Shown: one piece after another, positions 2,433-23,340 of the stretch
Position numbering within the stretch: the stretch's first letter is position 1
How the letters are laid out: every line of letters starts with the position of its first letter
DNA from: a virus
Taxonomy: Duplodnaviria; Caudoviricetes
Strand: one strand, 5' to 3'
Virus record (IMG/VR): IMGVR_UViG_3300044787_000016
Location: 1 to 46,303 of that record
DNA: 46,303 bases
The notes under the pieces: generated by a model
What the model saw: only the letters and a program-made list of their open reading frames with translations
The model's database searches: none
What the model was told of the DNA's origin: nothing
Translations under genes and position numbers: made by a program

Positions 2433-4829
2433 TTAGTTTAGAGTACCCCACGCAGCGCCAGGTTCTCCAATTTTCGAAGTAACCGGGACGCTAAACCCGG
2501 GGGTGATGGATGGCCACTCACGCTCCATGGTTGCCTTAACCTTCGCCACCACGCCCTCAATCTCGTCCTTATGGGCTTCAATCAGGACGGCATCGTGGAC
2601 GGGCGTGAGGAGCCAGGGGCCAACGTCCGGGAGGATCGCCCACAGCATATCTGCCACGGTCGATTGGGGGATAAACCCAATCATTGCGGGGGCGGCAGAG
2701 GAGTGGTAGAAGTAGCGCCGCCGACCAAACGGGTTCGTCGTGTAGCTCTTTGCGCGAGCTTCGGCGACCACACCGTTCCTCCACGCAGTCCACTTTGGGA
2801 AGAGAGAGAAGAGCCGTCGTTGCATAGCCTCACACTCAGCCACAGACACGTCAAAGCCAGCCATTGACAAAACGCGAGCCAGCTTCTTCGGACCCGCCCC
2901 GCGACCAGTACCATAATATACGTTCTTAGCCCGGGTACGATCAATCCCGAGGGCAGAACGTACCACTTCGTGGAGGTCCCCATTTATAGCTTCCATAAGG
3001 GCCTCATCCCCTGAGAGCGAGGCCTCGACGCGCGCCTCCGCGCTATTCCAGTCAACATACGCCATGCACCAATCAGGATAGGACGGGACGTAGATCATCC
3101 GCGCATCGTCCGATTGGTTCATGGTATTTGGATTTCGGCTTTGGACTCGGCCGGTCCCAGCGCCTTGCCCCTTTTGGGTGTAGGTCGCCCCAGCCTCATC
3201 CTTGTCCGAGGTTAGATACTGTGGATGGACCCGGCCATCGGGCCCCGCCTCGACGTTCGCGTAGGTAGCCAGGGACTTAGAACACTCCCGAATCTGCCGA
3301 AGGGCAGCCAAGCTTCTCCGCGCTTCCTCATGCCTGTCACATAGCGCAAAAGCGCGAGGATCCTCAAGGAGAGCCGTGATTGCCATGTCATCCGTCGTGA
3401 GGCGATCGTCCTTTCCATACTGCTTAGGCAGCTTAAGGTCTTCGTAGAGATAAGTCTTGATTTGCGTTGGAGATGCAGAGTTAATGTGCGGGGGCCAGTT
3501 TTGCATGGCCTGTCTGAGATTCTCCGTAAGAATCACGGTCCAGGTAGCAGCTTCCTCCACCCCGAGTTTGATCCCCCGCAGGGAGATATTCATCAGGACG
3601 GGGAGACCGCGCATCATGGTCTCAAACACTGGAAGCTGGCCACTCTTTTTGAGAAGGACATATTGCTTTTGGGCGAGTTCATAAGCTGCCCAAGCGTCCA
3701 TCCGGTTATACACGTCGGGGCGATCGAGGTCGAGGTGCTTCCACGGGCGGACGTCTAGGTGCATGGTCGCTGCCCTTTCCAACCCCTTCGGGAGGTCTGG
3801 ATTGAGAAGCTGGGCGCCCATCATGGTGTCGAAGACCTTAGCCTTTGGATCAAGGATCCCCAAGCGCGGCAAGTCAAACTGCGCGTTGTGGATGATTAGA
3901 GTAGCCTCAGGATCCTGGGCCATTTTCTGGAGGCGGACCTGAATGGTCTCCACACTATTCGGAGTCCCATAAGTATCCGCCCCATATTTCGATGAAGTCC
4001 CAATGCGCTCAACCACCCAATCATTAGGGGGCATTGGGGTTTCAATGTCTACCGCCGTGGCTTCGGGAAGGATGATCGCGGAGACCGGGATATCATCTGG
4101 TCCCTTAGGCTCGGACTCCTTTCGATAAAGGCGTCCAACCCGGAGGAGGTCAGCCTTCAGGGCTGGGATGGTCTTAAATTGCATCCGCATGATGCCCGCC
4201 GGATCGAGCACCGGGATAATCCATTTGACCTTGGGTGGGAGGACAGGGGAGATAGCCATGAGCTTCATGGCAAAGCGCGGGTCACCCTTAGTGTAAAGGA
4301 TACCCGCACCTTCACACTTCCTGCACTTAAAGTTGAGTAAAACATCACCACGCTCTCCATGAAGCAGTTTGGGAAGTACTCTCGCGCCGCCACACGCAGC
4401 ACACTTTTTTGTCGTCTTGTACTCCCCAATCTGGACGCGCACCTTGCGCCGGATAGGTACGCAATCCGCCGGGGTGAGACAATACCCCCGCATGTTCGTG
4501 ATGTTCGAGAGGCCGGTCACGCGCTTGAGGGCTACCCCTCCTACGAGAACCATGATCTCTGCATCTGATTGTCTCATCTCATCATCGAGACGATCCCATT
4601 CCTCCACGATTTGAGATTGGGTCGGAGCACCGGATGCGCCCAACGGAGGACTCTGGACCACATTCGTTACGCAGCAAAGGCTGCGACTCAGGCCGGCCTC
4701 TCGTGCAACGCTCCAGAAAATCCGACCCCTAGGACCTACAAAAGGAATACCTTGCTTGAGATCTTCCCGCGATGGGGCATCGCCGCAGACGAAGATGGGG
4801 AGAGTAGGGTCGCCTGATGCTTCGATCAT
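2433..4829 (-). CDS. polA: Family A DNA polymerase with N-terminal uracil-DNA-glycosylase-like domain and 3'-5' exonuclease
   Basis: UDG family-4-like VCGDAPSREDLKQGIPFVGPRG and TNVV. ExoI DIET, ExoII HNAQFD, ExoIII YNRMDA. TGRVQSRNPN, motif A DWNSAEAR, motif B RAKNVYYG, motif C VHDA. Confidence 0.92.
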   Translation of the reverse strand: MIEASGDPTLPIFVCGDAPSREDLKQGIPFVGPRGRIFWSVAREAGLSRSLCCVTNVVQSPPLGASGAPTQSQIVEEWDRLDDEMRQSDAEIMVLVGGVALKRVTGLSNITNMRGYCLTPADCVPIRRKVRVQIGEYKTTKKCAACGGARVLPKLLHGERGDVLLNFKCRKCEGAGILYTKGDPRFAMKLMAISPVLPPKVKWIIPVLDPAGIMRMQFKTIPALKADLLRVGRLYRKESEPKGPDDIPVSAIILPEATAVDIETPMPPNDWVVERIGTSSKYGADTYGTPNSVETIQVRLQKMAQDPEATLIIHNAQFDLPRLGILDPKAKVFDTMMGAQLLNPDLPKGLERAATMHLDVRPWKHLDLDRPDVYNRMDAWAAYELAQKQYVLLKKSGQLPVFETMMRGLPVLMNISLRGIKLGVEEAATWTVILTENLRQAMQNWPPHINSASPTQIKTYLYEDLKLPKQYGKDDRLTTDDMAITALLEDPRAFALCDRHEEARRSLAALRQIRECSKSLATYANVEAGPDGRVHPQYLTSDKDEAGATYTQKGQGAGTGRVQSRNPNTMNQSDDARMIYVPSYPDWCMAYVDWNSAEARVEASLSGDEALMEAINGDLHEVVRSALGIDRTRAKNVYYGTGRGAGPKKLARVLSMAGFDVSVAECEAMQRRLFSLFPKWTAWRNGVVAEARAKSYTTNPFGRRRYFYHSSAAPAMIGFIPQSTVADMLWAILPDVGPWLLTPVHDAVLIEAHKDEIEGVVAKVKATMEREWPSITPGFSVPVTSKIGEPGAAWGTLN

Positions 4830-12181: not shown

Positions 12182-13374
12182 TAATTCCCCTTCACATTCA
12201 CAATTTGGCGAAGCGTATGGTCAATGGTCGCTAGCTCCTTCGAGTGCGCCATGACCTCATCGATATCCTTGTATGCCCCGGGGAGTTCATCGATCAGGGC
12301 ATCGTCATGCCGGCACTCGATCCCCTTCATGGCTGTCTCAAAGTCAGCCATAGTGAACCGGCGCCTAGCTTCAGTCCGGGAGAACCGACGTCCTGCCCCG
12401 TGGGGCGCGGATTCGAAGGCATCTCTATTCCCAAGGCCTGAGACGATGTACGTTCTCGAACCCATCGACCCCGGGATCACGCCCTTCTGGCCCTCCTGCA
12501 TTTGGATCGCACCCTTCCGGGTCACCCACACGTTATGCCCGAAGTGGTGCTCCATCTGGGTGAAGTTATGGTGGCAGTTAATGCGCTCGATCTCCATCTC
12601 AGCTTGGTGTCCATCCTCACCACAAATGGTATAGGAGAACTCAGTCAGGACCCTATCCATCATCTCGTCTCGGTTGAGGCGTGCAAACTCTTGTGCCCAA
12701 AGGAGATCGCGGATATATGCCTTGAATTCAGGGCGATCCTCGGGGAGATAGGCTAAGTCCCTGTCAGGAAGGGAGATAAAGAACTCACCCATTAGATGTT
12801 GTGCCGCTTTGATATGCGAATCAGCGATTCGATTACCTACTCCTCTGGATCCTGAGTGGAGGACGATCCATACACGATCCGCCTCGTCCAAACATACTTC
12901 AATGAAGTGGTTTCCCGAACCCAGGGAACCGAGTTGGACAGGCCAGTTTGCGAACTTAGTGTAATCAGGATAGTCCTTCCCATAGCCAATCATATCCAGC
13001 TCGTTGATCCGGCAGGTCATGGTCGCGGTGGCACGCGAATTCTTATTTCGCCCACCAGCACCCAAGGGGATCCTTCGCTCGATCCCAAGGCGAAGCGCAT
13101 TCAAGTTATCGGGGAGTTGACTCGCGTTGAAACACGTTCGAACGGCCACCATCCCACACCCAATATCAACCCCAACGGCCGCAGGGATGATCGCCCCCTT
13201 GGTTGCGATAACCGTTCCGACCGTGGCGCCCTTGCCCAAATGGCAATCGGGCATGACCGCGACGTGCTTAAAGAGGAAGGGCATGGACGCAATGTTCTGG
13301 ATCTGCTGCATAGCCGCAGGCTCGATAGCAGCTGTCGGCAGCCACGTCTTAATGTTTACATCTACATCAAACAT
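12181..13374 (-). CDS. rtcB: RtcB family RNA ligase (3'-phosphate/5'-OH ligase)
   Basis: MPDCHLGKG, GVDIGCGM, GSLGSGNHFIE, HSGSRG, HHNF, RKGA, PGSMG, HGAGR, DELPGAYK. SD AGGAG before ATG 13374. Confidence 0.96.
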   Translation of the reverse strand: MFDVDVNIKTWLPTAAIEPAAMQQIQNIASMPFLFKHVAVMPDCHLGKGATVGTVIATKGAIIPAAVGVDIGCGMVAVRTCFNASQLPDNLNALRLGIERRIPLGAGGRNKNSRATATMTCRINELDMIGYGKDYPDYTKFANWPVQLGSLGSGNHFIEVCLDEADRVWIVLHSGSRGVGNRIADSHIKAAQHLMGEFFISLPDRDLAYLPEDRPEFKAYIRDLLWAQEFARLNRDEMMDRVLTEFSYTICGEDGHQAEMEIERINCHHNFTQMEHHFGHNVWVTRKGAIQMQEGQKGVIPGSMGSRTYIVSGLGNRDAFESAPHGAGRRFSRTEARRRFTMADFETAMKGIECRHDDALIDELPGAYKDIDEVMAHSKELATIDHTLRQIVNVKGN

Positions 13375-13389
13375 GCCCAATCTCCTAGG

Positions 13390-13466
13390 TGGTTGGGGAG
13401 CCGGGACTCGAACCCGGATCGGCTTGCTTCCAAAGCAAGGGGGTTAGCCAATTACCCTACTCCCCA
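13390..13466 (-). tRNA. tRNA with TGG anticodon (Pro by anticodon; atypical identity elements), CCA encoded
   Basis: Cloverleaf: TGGGGAG/CTCCCCA, GGGT/ACCC, CTTGC-TTTGGAA-GCAAG, CCGGG-TTCGAGT-CCCGG, ACCA. Confidence 0.9.
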
Positions 13467-19241: not shown

Positions 19242-19394
19242 TTAGTTATCTCCAAAGCCCTTGCGGATAAGGCAAGGGATGATGAACACATGGATGCGAC
19301 CGCGAAAGCGCAGGCCTATCCCATAGGTTGACAAGCTGATACGCTTGTCCCCTGTATGGGCTCTGAAGGATCGATGAAGGATCGGGCTTCGCAT
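19242..19394 (-). CDS. Hypothetical early protein (first gene of left arm)
   Basis: ORF MRSPIL... downstream of the predicted promoter. Confidence 0.45.
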   Translation of the reverse strand: MRSPILHRSFRAHTGDKRISLSTYGIGLRFRGRIHVFIIPCLIRKGFGDN

Positions 19395-19449
19395 TGGATT
19401 TTCACTCTCTTTTCTCGCTCGCACTATTGCGGCGACGATCGAACACTCC

Positions 19450-19482
19450 AGCATGTATCATGCCCGCGCTAAGTTGTTTGTT
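19450..19482 (-). promoter_or_regulatory. Sigma54-like -24/-12 promoter with adjacent IHF-like site
   Basis: Minus strand GGGCATGATACATGCT (GG-N10-GC) preceded by AACAAACAACTTA (IHF consensus WATCAANNNNTTR, 2 mismatches). Confidence 0.5.
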
Positions 19483-19560
19483 TTCAATGGACTCGTGCAT
19501 ATATATGGGGCAAAGCGCAATTGCAGTAGGGGTATTTTGCACGCTGGTCTCGGGGTGATG

Positions 19561-19608
19561 GTGTAGGTGAGAGTGTAGGTGAGGCTATGGCATGGGCTTA
19601 GGTGAGAG
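19561..19608. repeat. Short direct repeats (GTG)TAGGTGAG x3
   Basis: GTGTAGGTGAG at 19561 and 19573; TAGGTGAG at 19599. Confidence 0.65.
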
Positions 19609-19678
19609 CACGCGCGCGTGAGGCGACGCCTTGGGGTAGGGTGGAGCCCCTCTGCGATATTTTCCTATAATCCCCTAA

Positions 19679-19707
19679 TTGACTCGCGCCCCGGACTAAA
19701 GTACGAT
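19679..19707 (+). promoter_or_regulatory. Sigma70-type promoter of right arm
   Basis: TTGACT-N17-TACGAT, 9 nt before ATG 19717. Confidence 0.7.
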
Positions 19708-19716
19708 TGCCAGGTT

Positions 19717-20508
19717 ATGACTGAGGAACCTACCCCTGCGAAAATTCACCCACCCACTAAAGTCAAATCTAGAGGCCGGACAAAAACCATGTCCAGGCAG
19801 GCTGGAGTCCGGCTAACTCCTTCGCAGCAACAGCATTTGCTCGAAATGCTCCTGACGAAATATAAGGCAGCGAATGGGGGACCTGGCCATGGGCTCTCAG
19901 ACCGCCAAATCGCTATGCGCCTTGGGGTTGGCTTCCGCTCGGTGGGTCGATATAAGGCCCTATTCATCAAGAGATCCCCGGAACTCGCTGAGGCTATCCA
20001 GGGTACTCAGTTGGATAGTATTACGAATCTCTGCCGACTCGTTTCGAGTCAAAACGTTGATATAGATAACACTTGGGATCCAATTCCCAGAGATCCTAAA
20101 CCAGAACCCCCTCCGGCTGAGCCGGAACCCCCTAAGGAAGAAAGGCTAAAGAAAGCCGCCCAGGACCATGGACTGTCCACGATCAGATCTGAAGGGACCC
20201 TCCCCGTTGAAGAGATGCTTCGGGTCCTTTCCGAGATGGCGACCATGGGACCCCCGCAATATCGGGTCCAGGCCGTCAAGCTCCTCGATGAACTCCAGGC
20301 AATTCACCGCCCTGTCGAGTCCTTTGGCCCACCTCCACCGCTTACTCCTGAGGAACGAACCTCCCGCCTTACCGTCTTGATGGAAGTCTGTGGGAAAGAA
20401 ACCACAGACGCCGCCTACGCCCGTCTTTGGGGACCTGATGTCAGACAAGACCAGCCGCCGATGGAGTCACCACCGGCTGCGGAAGCACCTAAGGAAACTC
20501 CTGCGTGA
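19717..20508 (+). CDS. HTH protein, candidate terminase small subunit
   Basis: LSDRQIAMRLGVGFRSVGRY helix-turn-helix; positioned upstream of TerL. Confidence 0.5.
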   Translation: MTEEPTPAKIHPPTKVKSRGRTKTMSRQAGVRLTPSQQQHLLEMLLTKYKAANGGPGHGLSDRQIAMRLGVGFRSVGRYKALFIKRSPELAEAIQGTQLDSITNLCRLVSSQNVDIDNTWDPIPRDPKPEPPPAEPEPPKEERLKKAAQDHGLSTIRSEGTLPVEEMLRVLSEMATMGPPQYRVQAVKLLDELQAIHRPVESFGPPPPLTPEERTSRLTVLMEVCGKETTDAAYARLWGPDVRQDQPPMESPPAAEAPKETPA

Positions 20509-21022
20509 TCCCCGAGTTGAAATCAAGCTCGAAACCCTACCAGATTCTCTGGGTTGTGATGCCCACACCAAATGGACAACTAGTTCCACCATTCGCATCG
20601 TTATCGACACCGCCCGAGTCGGACTGGTTCGAGGCGCGATCCATGAGCTACTCCACGTCCTTCTGGATGGAACCATGTGGCCCTTCTCCGAGGATGTCGA
20701 GGAATCTATCGTAAACGCCCTAGAGGAAGACCTTTACGAAGCCCTGGTGATCGAGAACAAGTTGGAGGCCTTCGCCACCCTTGTCCAGACCAGGGTGATT
20801 ACCACCCCCCGAGTTAGGCCCAATATGCCCCGAAAGTCTCCTTCATCCGCTTCCTCTAAGCGGAAGGTCGAAAAGACCCTATCTGAATTTAAGGCGGGAT
20901 CCCTTCATACAGGCTCCGAAAAAGGTCCCCTGGTGACCGACCGTAAGCAGGCCGTTGCGATCGCTCTCAGTCAGGCCAAGAAGGCCAGATCCCGCCCTTC
21001 ATCTCCTGGAAAGCCTTATTAA
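20438..21022 (+). CDS. HExxH-motif protein fused in frame to a DUF6496-like domain
   Basis: AIHELLH; C-terminal KVEKTLSEFKAGSLHTGS...VTDRKQAVAIALSQA; internal ATG at 20825. Confidence 0.6.
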   Translation: MSDKTSRRWSHHRLRKHLRKLLRDPRVEIKLETLPDSLGCDAHTKWTTSSTIRIVIDTARVGLVRGAIHELLHVLLDGTMWPFSEDVEESIVNALEEDLYEALVIENKLEAFATLVQTRVITTPRVRPNMPRKSPSSASSKRKVEKTLSEFKAGSLHTGSEKGPLVTDRKQAVAIALSQAKKARSRPSSPGKPY

Positions 21023-21028
21023 GTTGAA

Positions 21029-22783
21029 TTGGTCCGTAGCTTAATGTCAGAGCTTCCGTCTCCAAAACGGGAAGGTGTAGGTTCAAGTCCTACCGGGCTA
21101 GCCATTTGGCCCACAGGCATAGAGCGATCCCTCCTTGCGGATGCTTGTGTCCAGCATTTCTGGCCTTTCCTTTGTTACGCCTTTGGAGTGAAAAAGAACC
21201 CCAAGGGGGCGTGGTTGGATGAAGAGATCCATAAGCCCCTCTGTGACTGGCTTGAGAAGGTCGCTCGGGAATGGCTCGCGATGCGGGCCTCGGGAAAGCA
21301 GGAACGGTTCTATATCCTCATCGATGCTGCACGCGACTCGGGGAAGACCGTTATTGTAACGAAGGCCTTCACGGTCTGGCTCCATCTCCAGGAACCGGAC
21401 ATGGCCTCGGTCATTGACTCCCTGACCATGGAACGATCCATGGAGTTTGCGGAGATTGCAAAGCGTCTCTGGGAGGGAAAGGATCCCTGTGCATACTTCA
21501 CCTGGCTCTATGGAAAGTGGGAAGGCCCCGATATCTGGACAAAGAAGCGACTTGTCCATAGAGCACGAAAACTCTCCCTCTCTGAAGCTAGTCTGGAGTG
21601 TATCTCCGTTGACACCGGAGCTACTGGAGACCATCCTGACCACATTACGATTGATGACCCAGTTAGCCGGGATAAGCTCAGAGAGTCAGGTAATTATATT
21701 CAGGTTGCCAACACCCACTTCGGAGCCCTCTTCCCCGTCCTAAAGAACGACTCCCTTTTGGTCCTTTGTGCGACCCCCTATATGGATGGGGATGTGGTGA
21801 CAAACGCCATCGTCATCGATGGGATCAAGGAACTTATCGGCCAGCAACTCCCCTTGGAGTATAGGAAGCACCTGAGGAAGGACGGGAAGTGGCGGATGTA
21901 CTATATGCCCGCCGCAGGGGAGGATGGGAAGACCCTGATGCCCAAGTCCTGGCCTCAGAACGAACTTGATAACTACCGGAGGAAGTACCCAGCGGAGTAC
22001 GCGGCTCAATGCCTTCTTCGTCCGGGCTCGGGAGACCAGGTGCCTCTTACATGGGATCAGATCCAACAGTGCATTGTTGAGCGAAAAGACGTCCCCAAGA
22101 ACCTAACCATTACCATCCATTGCGATACAGCCTTCAAGAATCCTGATCGCATGGGCCTTGGAGATGATTCGGTCATTGAAATTTGGGGTCATGCAACCAA
22201 TGGAGACGTCTACTACCTAGAGGGATATGGTTCAAATAGATGGAGGTCTGAGGACTTCACCGATAAGCTCGTCTCCATCGTTCAGCGATATAAGAAGTCA
22301 GGCCGGCAGATCCGTTGGATGACGGATGATAGGACCCTTGGAGGGAAAGAGGGCCTTTGGAGAGACCATCTTCAATCATGCTTCTCCAACGCTCAAATGT
22401 GGATGCCCCCCTTCATGGAGATTAATCGCCGGGCTGGCCCAAATAAAGTTGCCCGAATCGCAGAGCCCGCAGGCTATTGGGTTGATGGCCATGTAAAGCT
22501 CGTTAGGGATGCCCCTGGGATCGATCAACTTATGTGGCAGATGGCCCGGATTGGCGTTTCTGAGCATGATGACTGGTCGGAGTGCGCTGCTGACGTCTTC
22601 CACCCAGAAGTGTATTGTCCAAACCTTCCTCCCGGGACAGATGCCGCACCACCCGTACCTTCGCGCCCCTGGGATAGAGAACTCCAAACAGGCCGCATCT
22701 CCAACTCAGACGCCCAAGATATCTATGACACCTACTTTCAAGATGAGGAACCTACTCGTTGGATGCGCGACCCGATCCGTTGA
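21029..22783 (+). CDS. terL: Terminase large subunit (start uncertain)
   Basis: Walker A ARDSGKT, TGDHPDHITIDD (Walker B), ATPY, nuclease HCDTA, DDS, HDD. Confidence 0.88.
   Translation: MVRSLMSELPSPKREGVGSSPTGLAIWPTGIERSLLADACVQHFWPFLCYAFGVKKNPKGAWLDEEIHKPLCDWLEKVAREWLAMRASGKQERFYILIDAARDSGKTVIVTKAFTVWLHLQEPDMASVIDSLTMERSMEFAEIAKRLWEGKDPCAYFTWLYGKWEGPDIWTKKRLVHRARKLSLSEASLECISVDTGATGDHPDHITIDDPVSRDKLRESGNYIQVANTHFGALFPVLKNDSLLVLCATPYMDGDVVTNAIVIDGIKELIGQQLPLEYRKHLRKDGKWRMYYMPAAGEDGKTLMPKSWPQNELDNYRRKYPAEYAAQCLLRPGSGDQVPLTWDQIQQCIVERKDVPKNLTITIHCDTAFKNPDRMGLGDDSVIEIWGHATNGDVYYLEGYGSNRWRSEDFTDKLVSIVQRYKKSGRQIRWMTDDRTLGGKEGLWRDHLQSCFSNAQMWMPPFMEINRRAGPNKVARIAEPAGYWVDGHVKLVRDAPGIDQLMWQMARIGVSEHDDWSECAADVFHPEVYCPNLPPGTDAAPPVPSRPWDRELQTGRISNSDAQDIYDTYFQDEEPTRWMRDPIR
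21030..21104 (+). tRNA. tRNA-Trp(CCA), CCA end encoded, atypical D-loop
   Basis: TGGTCCG/CGGGCTA, GCTT/GAGC, TCCGT-CTCCAAA-ACGGG, GTAGG-TTCAAGT-CCTAC, GCCA. Confidence 0.85.
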
Positions 22784-23340
22784 TCGTCTTTTTTGATACC
22801 GAAATCTCCAAGTCCGTCGATGAAGTAGGCGGATGGGAGAACGTAGCGCAAGGCCATGCAGGTCTTTCTGCCGCCGTTACTGTCTCTGCCCCTACCCCCC
22901 GGGTTGGGCTCTTTGATCTCCACACTGTTGAGAACCTAGTTAACTACCTTGAGGACGCTGATGTAGTGGTGTCCTTTAATGGAAGAGGATTTGATGTACC
23001 CTTACTCGCGTCGCTCGTCGGACGACCCCTCGTCCTCCCCCGCCATATTGATCTTTGCGATCTCATCTCCCGATCTGTTGGGAAACCTAAGCACGGCGCC
23101 TGGAGTCTCGACGCCATCTGCCGACGAACTCTTGGATATGGTAAGACTGGAACGGGAGAGTTTGCTCCTGAGCTTGCGAAAGCTGGACGCTTTGGAGAAC
23201 TTTTTGACTATTGTTTGAATGATGTGTATATCCTCCAGGACCTCTTCGAACATATCCGTGTGAAGGGTTTTGTGGTGGGAACGCTGGGAGAAGAGATTCT
23301 CCTCCCCAAGGTGCAGGAGGCCATTAATGGCGTTTGTTGA
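22759..23340 (+). CDS. RNase H-like / DEDD 3'-5' exonuclease (YprB-like)
   Basis: FFDTE, SFNGRGFDVP, HIDL, SLDAI, YCLNDV. Confidence 0.82.
   Translation: MDARPDPLIVFFDTEISKSVDEVGGWENVAQGHAGLSAAVTVSAPTPRVGLFDLHTVENLVNYLEDADVVVSFNGRGFDVPLLASLVGRPLVLPRHIDLCDLISRSVGKPKHGAWSLDAICRRTLGYGKTGTGEFAPELAKAGRFGELFDYCLNDVYILQDLFEHIRVKGFVVGTLGEEILLPKVQEAINGVC

What the first reader, a model, noticed from the sequence alone, without database searches (positions are those of the whole stretch)
21029..21190. Complete tRNA-Trp embedded in the 5' end of the terminase large-subunit reading frame
Seen: the tRNA (21030-21104) is stop-free in the TerL frame. The only near-upstream in-frame starts are TTG 21029 (overlapping tRNA base 1) and ATG 21044 (in the D-arm). 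After the CCA end the frame continues IWPTGIERSLLADACVQHFWPFLCYAFG, which looks like a genuine TerL N-terminal helix, and the next in-frame start is GTG 21188 with no SD. The D-loop lacks the conserved GG (AATGTCA). Inference: dual-use DNA in which tRNA processing would decapitate the terL mRNA. That could throttle terminase level, or couple packaging to tRNA processing or cleavage in a phage that also encodes two RNA ligases. An ATT start right after the CCA is an alternative.
Basis: partly seen in the sequence, partly recalled or inferred. Interest (0 to 1): 0.72.

Follow-up and report, generated by a model that had tools for sequence, protein, structure and literature searches.

The report
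Terminase gene starts inside a tRNA
In a small group of sediment phages a tryptophan tRNA gene sits on the front of the DNA-packaging terminase gene, where relatives have a plain start codon, and the enzyme is likely translated from a start codon inside the tRNA, so each transcript would yield either the tRNA or the enzyme.

Summary
Observation confirmed. tRNA-Trp(CCA) 21030-21104 lies in the TerL frame. The helix after it is genuine: its motif is in 62 of 85 homologues, pLDDT is about 95, and changes are synonymous. So TerL must start before 21107.

Close relatives without the tRNA start TerL with GTG/TTG coupled to the upstream stop, so the tRNA looks inserted at that start. A relic TTG-AAT-TGG (21024) opens a six-codon frame whose stop overlaps the D-loop ATG 21044 (TAATG), a likely relay. 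TTG 21029 is the main rival.

A diverged fused relative keeps the 21-residue leader. It differs at 9 of 20 leader residues against 37 of 557 in the body, in a stem-preserving pattern, and has Thr at the ATT position. Selection therefore appears to act on the RNA, not the peptide.

An open frame alone is ordinary (53 of 106 viral tRNA-Trp). No read evidence of processing, splicing or regulation was found; the RNA-ligase link is unsupported. G19 is missing, so charging is uncertain.

New variant of a tRNA nested in an ORF (selC in selB). The scan noted similar tRNA-borne starts on other DNA.

The parts
20438..21022 (+). Upstream gene (HExxH-motif region plus C-terminal DUF6496); its stop TAA 21020-21022 is the coupling point. 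Exact start uncertain.
   Evidence: ORF; DUF6496 E 1.2e-8; a similar C-terminus precedes terL in tRNA-less L081, L085, L090, L010, L020
21024..21044 (+). Six-codon mini-ORF (TTG start, M-N-W-S-V-A-stop), likely a relic of the original M-x-W terL start. Its Trp codon is tRNA bases 1-3 and its TAA overlaps ATG 21044 by one base.
   Evidence: gap to upstream stop +1 in the window, 0 in L006; absent in L003; M-x-W is the commonest start form (14 of 62 homologues)
21029..21031 (+). TTG in the TerL frame at tRNA positions -1 to +2; rival start
   Evidence: gap +6 (window), +5 (L006), +1 (L003)
21030..21104 (+). tRNA-Trp(CCA) gene with encoded CCA end, G73, non-canonical D-loop (G18 U19)
   Evidence: compensatory anticodon-stem change in L003; 0 of 75 differences to L006
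21044..21106 (+). Predicted 21-residue tRNA-encoded TerL leader from the D-loop ATG
   Evidence: Gene callers start here in P0086 and P0098, and give P0092 a leader of the same length; pLDDT about 52 for model residues 1-20
21104..21106 (+). ATT codon overlapping the last A of CCA; disfavoured start
   Evidence: Thr at this position in P0092; ACC in L003; 81 nt from the upstream stop
21107..21187 (+). Conserved TerL N-terminal helices (W27, E32, L35, A37, C40, F44, F47 of the ORF)
   Evidence: At least 90% conserved in a 50-row alignment; helices 29-42 and 44-51 at pLDDT about 95-98; 4 synonymous and 0 non-synonymous codon changes against L006
21044..22783 (+). Terminase large subunit gene (579 aa from ATG 21044; 584 aa from TTG 21029)
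   Evidence: phrog_38 E 3.2e-32; 85 homologues; weak profile hits to solved terminases 8dgc and 4bij

Best explanation
A tRNA-Trp gene occupies the position of the terL start codon, and TerL is likely translated from the ATG in the tRNA's D-loop (21044), probably reached by a relay in which ribosomes ending the upstream gene would restart at the relic TTG 21024, read six codons, stop on the TAA that overlaps the ATG and restart in the terminase frame. Shown: the anatomy, the coupled starts of tRNA-less relatives, conservation of the helix after the tRNA, and a stem-preserving pattern of change in the tRNA. Inferred: the start used; the 21-residue disordered leader on TerL; and that a transcript is either translated through the unfolded tRNA or folded and cut by the host's processing enzymes, which would remove the terL start. 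The arrangement is most likely a tolerated insertion, made possible because this frame of tRNA-Trp is often open and often carries a D-loop ATG, rather than an evolved regulator.
For: (1) TerL needs the region after the tRNA: motif in 62 of 85 homologues; helices at pLDDT about 95-98; 4/0 synonymous/non-synonymous codon changes against L006, 8/4 against L003, 10/5 against L081. (2) Ancestral junction: 7 of 8 tRNA-less relatives examined start TerL with GTG/TTG at -4 to +1 nt from the upstream stop (loci picked by me). L081, with 96% TerL identity, has stop-GTG-TCT-TGG and no tRNA. (3) The first start after the stop is TTG 21024 in the window and L006, closing on TAATG; in L003 it is the in-frame TTG. 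This phage uses such junctions: 15 of 25 late junctions are 1- or 4-nt overlaps or gaps of 0-2 nt, 6 of them TAATG, some without an SD. Passages of PMC10666635 put coupling at -8 to +6 nt and say about 20 nt nearly abolishes it, which argues against direct use of ATG 21044 (+21) or ATT (+81) by coupling. (4) P0092 keeps a 21-residue leader with 9 of 20 residues changed against 37 of 557 in the body (P 5e-6). All nine are single-base changes; two together give a compensatory T-stem pair, and one would need C at tRNA base 2, which would remove TTG 21029. (5) tRNA identical to L006 (0 of 75) where flanks differ at 43 of 1012 sites, P about 0.04. (6) Leaders of 20 or more residues occur in 10 of 62 homologues.
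Against: No translation or processing data. The DNA of P0092 was not seen: its start, its stems and the loss of TTG 21029 are read back from a predicted protein. The mini-ORF is absent in L003. Two successive restarts, the first at a TTG, may be inefficient, and ATG 21044 is predicted paired in the naked mRNA (P unpaired 0.02-0.19). The tRNA lacks G19 (105 of 106 have GG) and the cloverleaf is 4.6 kcal/mol less stable than an alternative fold in mRNA context. L007 has no ATG/GTG/TTG before its conserved W, so non-canonical starts appear to occur in this family. The TerL tree leaves the close clade unresolved, so L081 could be a secondary loss.
Confidence: 0.5

Rival explanations
1. TerL starts at TTG 21029 by direct coupling to the upstream stop, so the whole tRNA is translated as a 26-residue leader. 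Dual use and decapitation by RNase P are the same as in the best explanation.
For: TTG at tRNA -1 is in all fused loci with DNA and in L003. Gaps of +6, +5 and +1 are inside the -8 to +6 window. The portal gene of this phage has a +6 gap without a good SD. The codon is predicted unpaired (0.95-0.97). Tested tRNA-less relatives use TTG/GTG.
Against: A nearer TTG (21024) lies between it and the stop in the window and L006. The Leu-to-Arg change in P0092 implies G71, which keeps the acceptor stem only with C2 and so without this TTG (inferred from protein).
Confidence: 0.22
2. TerL starts at ATT 21104 (or another near-cognate codon) right at the CCA end, giving M-W-P, and the tRNA is not translated.
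For: Gives a native-length N-terminus. L007 appears to need an ATA start. The ATT is unpaired in the predicted mRNA fold.
Against: Thr at this codon in the fused-type P0092. No SD (-2.5), whereas the ATA of L007 has one. 81 nt from the upstream stop. ATT works at about 0.3% of ATG (as cited in PMC10666635). No homologue has a single residue before the W (minimum 2 in 62). Cutting after CCA would split the codon.
Confidence: 0.1
3. The cloverleaf is a tRNA-like element that is never matured or charged, so there is no real competition and TerL simply carries a leader.
For: G19 missing. P0092 implies further changes at D-loop 19 and T-loop 55. Acceptor pairs U1-A72, G2-U71 and U4-G69 differ from the B. 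subtilis Trp determinants (PMC9976931 passages). The alternative fold is predicted more stable. The isolated tRNA's folding z-score is only -1.06.
Against: Compensatory stem changes in L003 (DNA) and P0092 (inferred). Anticodon CCA, G73 and the CCA end are kept in all DNA copies. 0 of 75 differences to L006. The leader peptide itself is not conserved, so something at RNA level is being kept.
Confidence: 0.12
4. The tRNA is removed from the message like an intron (cut, then joined by RtcB or the RNA ligase), or skipped by a ribosome hop between the two TGG codons 77 nt apart, restoring an M-N-W-P start.
For: Matching TGG at 21030 and 21107, with the relic start in front; the phage encodes RtcB and an RNA ligase.
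Against: Standard cuts (recalled) remove 72 or 75 nt, and neither puts TTG 21024 in frame; 71, 74 or 77 are needed (arithmetic on the sequence). No stop follows the first TGG directly and the nascent chain is two residues, unlike T4 gene 60 (recalled). L003 lacks the relic start. The duplicated TGG is explained as the insertion's microhomology.
Confidence: 0.03

Closest known systems
selC (tRNA-Sec) nested in the selB ORF of Alphaproteobacteria (Mukai 2021, PMC8124441; passages read)
   Same: Same-strand tRNA inside a translated frame. The tRNA sequence becomes a non-conserved protein extension. Processing is proposed to destroy the mRNA. The trait is conserved but not essential. Bioinformatic prediction only.
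   Different: There the tRNA is at the 3' end (C-terminal extension, non-stop mRNA on cutting) of a functionally linked gene in bacteria. Here it is at the 5' end, would supply the start codon itself, lies in an essential phage packaging gene with no clear functional link, and tRNA-less and cassette forms survive in close relatives.
Translational coupling by termination-reinitiation (PMC10666635; passages read)
   Same: Stop-start gaps of +1 and -1 (TAATG) at the two proposed restarts; the commonest junction types in this phage.
   Different: The bridging six-codon ORF and the TAATG lie inside a tRNA gene, so coupling would compete with tRNA folding.
Mitochondrial tRNA punctuation with a start directly after a tRNA (recalled, no paper read)
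   Same: A tRNA abuts the 5' end of a protein gene, with an ATT at the junction.
   Different: There excision releases a translatable mRNA. Here the ATT overlaps the CCA, is not conserved, and excision would remove the start.

Membership tests
Bacterial-type tRNA-Trp | Cloverleaf with all four stems; Rfam RF00005 above gathering score | tested here: met
   58.2 bits against 29; 21 of 21 pairs standard
Bacterial-type tRNA-Trp | Major identity elements: anticodon CCA and discriminator G73; CCA end | tested here: met
   Sequence; elements as given in PMC9976931 passages
Bacterial-type tRNA-Trp | Acceptor-stem determinants A1-U72, G2-C71, G3-C70, G4-C69 (E. coli / B. subtilis) | tested here: not met
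   U1-A72, G2-U71, G3-C70, U4-G69: one of four. The host is unknown, so its rules may differ.
Bacterial-type tRNA-Trp | Constant D-loop G18-G19 | tested here: not met
   G18 U19; 105 of 106 viral tRNA-Trp have GG
Bacterial-type tRNA-Trp | Processed to a mature, aminoacylated RNA | not testable with these tools
   Only contigs of depth 2-5 from RNA libraries
Terminase large subunit | Family profile match over ATPase and nuclease regions, with conserved N-terminal helices | tested here: met
   phrog_38, residues 38-515, E 3e-32; invariant R102, K106, D209, D210, D366; no Pfam hit
tRNA nested in a same-strand ORF (selC/selB type) | tRNA sequence inside a translated reading frame on the same strand | tested here: inconclusive
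   Frame open and a start before 21107 required; 61 of 75 nt inside with ATG 21044, all 75 with TTG 21029; translation not measured
tRNA nested in a same-strand ORF (selC/selB type) | tRNA at the 3' end of the ORF, giving a C-terminal extension | tested here: not met
   The tRNA is at the 5' end
tRNA nested in a same-strand ORF (selC/selB type) | Host gene functionally tied to the tRNA | tested here: inconclusive
   TerL is Trp-rich (23 of 579, 4.0%, against 1.75% for late genes; third of 31 genes), but tRNA-less homologues are Trp-rich too
Termination-reinitiation coupling | Start within -8 to +6 nt of an upstream stop | tested here: met
   TTG 21024 (+1), ATG 21044 relative to the mini-ORF stop (-1), TTG 21029 (+6); not met for ATG 21044 directly (+21) or ATT 21104 (+81)
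Termination-reinitiation coupling | Downstream translation depends on upstream translation | not testable with these tools
   Needs reporters or ribosome profiling
Programmed ribosomal bypass (T4 gene 60 type, features recalled) | Matched take-off and landing codons, a stop directly after take-off, and a nascent-peptide signal | tested here: not met
   Codons match (TGG 21030 and 21107), but the stop is three codons later and the peptide is two residues
tRNA-as-intron splicing (hypothetical) | Standard tRNA cuts give an in-frame join | tested here: not met
   72 or 75 nt removed leaves TTG 21024 out of frame; 71, 74 or 77 needed (from the sequence)

The most novel reading that the evidence does not exclude
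The junction is a tryptophan-sensing switch. The first codon of the tRNA-Trp gene is itself a Trp codon in the six-codon relay. When charged tRNA-Trp is short (for example after host anticodon-nuclease attack), ribosomes fail to cross it, the untranslated tRNA folds and is cut out to restore the pool, and Trp-rich terminase is withheld. When tRNA-Trp is plentiful, ribosomes read through, and packaging enzyme is made instead.
Probability: 0.08. Interest if true: 0.88.

Novelty: new variant of a known kind. Interest (0 to 1): 0.57.

Why it matters
It is a well-bracketed natural case of a tRNA gene likely supplying the start codon and first 21 codons of an essential protein, with tRNA-less, tRNA-plus-small-ORF and fused forms all present among phages with 87-100% TerL identity. 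That shows how a tRNA can enter a tightly coupled operon without breaking it: the anticodon frame of tRNA-Trp is open in half of viral copies and often carries a TAATG restart. It makes the competition between translation and tRNA processing on one transcript testable in a short reporter. It also warns annotators: several IMG calls start at GTG 21188 and drop the conserved helices (531-aa calls).

Tried and rejected
Start at GTG 21188: rejected, since it removes conserved, synonymously evolving helices.

Assembly artefact: rejected; the same junction is in L001, L002, L006, L083 and L088 and in one-piece contigs of runs X15 and X16.

RNA evidence: 4 of the 5 RNA-labelled runs were laid, giving 8 short records at depth 2-5, with no joints or molecule ends. 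One record (X21, 21009-21159, 7 mismatches) crosses the tRNA 3' end into terL but may be DNA, so I draw nothing from it. 4 of 19 DNA runs were laid: no joints; the five third-position changes in X16 overlap those of L006 and are not independent.

DNA for P0092: not found in viral contigs or genome contigs; a search for shorter fragments with the leader found none.

Host: no TerL relative or matching tRNA in genome contigs; unknown.

RNA-ligase link: RtcB and tRNAs are both absent from 3 of 3 near-complete farther relatives; the two close records searched are fragments. rtcB sits next to tRNA-Pro, which fits tRNA repair (recalled role); nothing links it to terL.

Own promoter for the tRNA: none seen; 2 promoter-like sites in 19300-23000 against 2.2 expected by chance, so uninformative.

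Order of events: the tree leaves the close clade unresolved.

Literature: searches (listings and abstract starts only) showed no phage tRNA overlapping a terminase start. One search returned 0 papers and only the selC paper. The library lacks most subscription journals and no supplements were read.

Full report
Setting. The window is a whole 46,303-base virus record held mainly in sediment metagenome runs. It encodes SU10-type portal and capsid proteins, a family A polymerase, RtcB and an RNA ligase, and two tRNAs, Pro at 13390-13466 (-) and Trp at 21030-21104 (+). The host is unknown: scans of genome contigs gave nothing.

The observation. The tRNA-Trp scores 58.2 bits, has 21 of 21 standard stem pairs, anticodon CCA, G73 and an encoded CCA end. 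The terminase ORF 21029-22783 (phrog_38, E 3e-32) runs through it. In-frame canonical starts are TTG 21029, ATG 21044 and GTG 21188, all without a good SD. For a baseline I drew 120 viral loci by a tRNA-Trp pattern (2 of 64 parts of the collection), which gave 110 ARAGORN calls and 106 distinct sequences. The same frame is open through the whole tRNA in 53 of 106, an in-frame D-loop ATG is present in 36, TAATG in the D-arm in 25 and D-loop GG in 105. The pattern fixes part of the tRNA and so favours open frames. Only 2 of 69 with at least 330 nt of flank had any frame running 100 codons past the tRNA, neither in this frame. So the open frame is ordinary; the fusion to a long gene and the missing G19 are not.

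The helix after the tRNA belongs to TerL. Of 85 homologues, 62 carry the W-x3/4-[EQ][RKHQ]-x-L motif in their first 70 residues. The other 23 do not match the expression, and several of them are visibly called from later starts. In a 50-row alignment, W27, E32, L35, A37, C40, F44 and F47 are at least 90% conserved. That alignment holds the window plus 49 of the 85: I left out P0032, P0039, P0042 and P0043, whose calls begin after the helix, as well as P0046 and P0055-P0085, so it favours full N-termini. AlphaFold2 gives helices 29-42 and 44-51 at pLDDT about 95-98 and residues 1-20 at about 52 (few rows cover the leader, which lowers that figure by itself). In 21107-21187, codon changes are 4 synonymous and 0 non-synonymous against L006, 8 and 4 against L003, and 10 and 5 against L081. 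TerL therefore has to start at or before 21107.

Relatives show how the junction arose. Three arrangements occur among close phages. Fused: window, L001, L002, L006, L083, L088 (L084 appears to be the same contig as L006). Cassette: L003 and L004 (L082 appears to be the same contig as L003; 92% TerL), where 172 extra bases follow the tRNA. The same tRNA frame runs into a small ORF, which gene callers also start at the D-loop ATG (P0100, 77 aa, 3 members), and TerL has its own TTG start with an SD-like motif. No tRNA: L081 (96% TerL), where the upstream stop is followed directly by GTG-TCT-TGG. Of 97 loci scanned, only these nine have a tRNA-Trp before terL. I picked eight tRNA-less loci for a junction table, five among the closest and three farther ones that looked coupled by eye. 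Seven start TerL with GTG or TTG at -4 to +1 nt from the upstream stop; L007 has no ATG/GTG/TTG before its W. The ancestral state is thus likely a weak coupled start, often M-x-W (14 of 62 homologues, the commonest form), and the tRNA is an insertion at that start. The tree does not resolve the close clade, so the order of fused, cassette and L081 forms is open. P0097 (cassette-type N-terminus) and P0099 (M-K-T-W) differ at only 3 of the first 520 residues compared, which suggests the junction is exchanged repeatedly.

The relic start. In the window the upstream stop (21020-21022) is followed after one base by TTG-AAT-TGG; in L006 the gap is zero. This has the M-x-W form, and its TGG is bases 1-3 of the tRNA; a second TGG, the real W codon, lies at 21107. 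Read on, the relic frame gives six codons and stops at TAA 21042-21044, overlapping ATG 21044 by one base. Passages of PMC10666635 place coupling between -8 and +6 nt, name TAATG as a standard overlap and report that about 20 nt nearly abolishes reinitiation. In this phage 15 of 25 late junctions are short overlaps or gaps of 0-2 nt and 6 are TAATG (gene list chosen by me). ATG 21044 is 21 nt from the upstream stop, too far for direct coupling, but reachable by the relay. TTG 21029 (+6, +5 in L006, +1 in L003) is at the edge of the range and remains the main rival. Both routes send ribosomes through the tRNA.

What is selected in the tRNA stretch. The window and L003 differ at 5 of 75 bases: one compensatory anticodon-stem pair, one G-U to A-U change and two loop changes. 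All five change the amino acid in the open frame. The window and L006 are identical over the tRNA while the flanks differ at 20 of 518 and 23 of 494 sites (P about 0.04; these genomes are mosaic, so this is weak). The most informative case is P0092, one of 15 listed members of a 19-member cluster, a 579-aa TerL with a leader of the same length. It differs at 9 of 20 leader residues against 37 of 557 in the body (P 5e-6). All nine can be reached by one base. Val-to-Ala and Thr-to-Ala together convert one T-stem pair; Pro-to-Ser keeps an anticodon-stem pair; Leu-to-Arg implies G71, which pairs only if base 2 is C, and that would remove TTG 21029; Ile-to-Thr removes the ATT. Its DNA was not found, so all this is read back from a predicted protein. 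The pattern says that the RNA structure is kept while the peptide drifts, with frame and length unchanged.

Is the tRNA functional? Major Trp identity elements are present, but three of four acceptor-stem determinants named for E. coli and B. subtilis are not (PMC9976931 passages), and G19 is missing; P0092 implies further changes at positions 19 and 55. In mRNA context the predicted best fold (-38.3 kcal/mol) beats the enforced cloverleaf (-33.7). It pairs the upstream stop region with the D-arm, and the 3' acceptor strand with the W-P codons. That fold is no better than shuffles (z -0.11) and the model ignores tertiary contacts. RNA runs were uninformative. I put mature, charged tRNA at roughly three in four.

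Mechanism. Shown: anatomy, comparative junctions, conservation pattern. Inferred: ribosomes finishing the upstream gene restart at TTG 21024, stop at the D-arm TAA, restart at ATG 21044 and make TerL with a 21-residue flexible leader, a length matched by 10 of 62 homologues. Transcripts not occupied by ribosomes fold the cloverleaf and are cut at both ends by host enzymes (established tRNA processing, recalled), which leaves a terL fragment without a start. The two products would be mutually exclusive per transcript. I find no sign that this is regulated: the tRNA is dispensable in a 96% relative, the features used are tRNA-Trp defaults, and RtcB lies beside the other tRNA and is absent, with all tRNAs, from 3 of 3 near-complete farther relatives. 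The Trp codon in the relay and the Trp richness of TerL (4.0% against 1.75%) keep a sensing model alive at low odds; the relay is absent in L003.

Known kin and novelty. The nearest published case is selC nested in the 3' end of selB, described there as the first nested tRNA gene in a bacterial ORF, with the same proposed competition (PMC8124441, passages). Literature searches (listings only) showed no tRNA supplying the start of a phage terminase; the library is incomplete. Unchecked notes of this scan describe tRNAs at the 5' ends of tatD and of a protease gene in other genomes, and one of them pointed me to the selC paper; none covers this genome or look-alikes. I class the finding as a new variant of a known kind, interest 0.57.

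Noticed in passing
L007/L008/L009/L086, about 2975-3003: TerL (63% identity) has no ATG/GTG/TTG in the 8 open codons before its conserved W; an ATA follows an SD-like AAGGGAG, suggesting a non-canonical start.
   Followed up: partly
L003 2766-2999: A 77-codon Cys/His-containing ORF starts at the tRNA's D-loop ATG and ends over the terL start. Only 3 database members and no family above cut-off; it may be only a bridging frame.
   Followed up: partly
window 13374-13466 (-): tRNA-Pro lies directly upstream of rtcB, which has its own SD and ATG; unlike tRNA-Trp it does not overlap a gene and has a canonical D-loop GG.
   Followed up: partly
window 20438-21022: The gene before the tRNA joins an HELLH (HExxH-like) region without family hit to a DUF6496 tail in one frame; an internal ATG near 20826 could give the short DUF6496 protein separately.
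   Followed up: no
window 21013-21046 and 21095-21112: Two predicted hairpins compete with the cloverleaf: upstream stop region with the D-arm, and the 3' acceptor strand with the W-P codons. Not more stable than shuffles.
   Followed up: partly
P0092 leader, tRNA positions 19 and 55: Implied changes U19 to C and U55 to G hit both D-loop and T-loop elbow positions together; possibly an alternative loop-loop pairing. Protein-inferred only.
   Followed up: no
window 2433-4829 (-): Family A DNA polymerase with an N-terminal uracil-DNA glycosylase-like domain.
   Followed up: no
L049 1381-2803: A distant relative (32% TerL) has a cluster of nine same-strand tRNA calls at a relaxed threshold ending shortly before terL, without overlap.
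   Followed up: no
window 22773-22796: Weak terminator-like hairpin with a T run at the terL stop, overlapping the start of the next ORF.
   Followed up: no
P0095, P0096: Two 38-aa members of the TerL cluster look unrelated to TerL, probably a clustering artefact.
   Followed up: no
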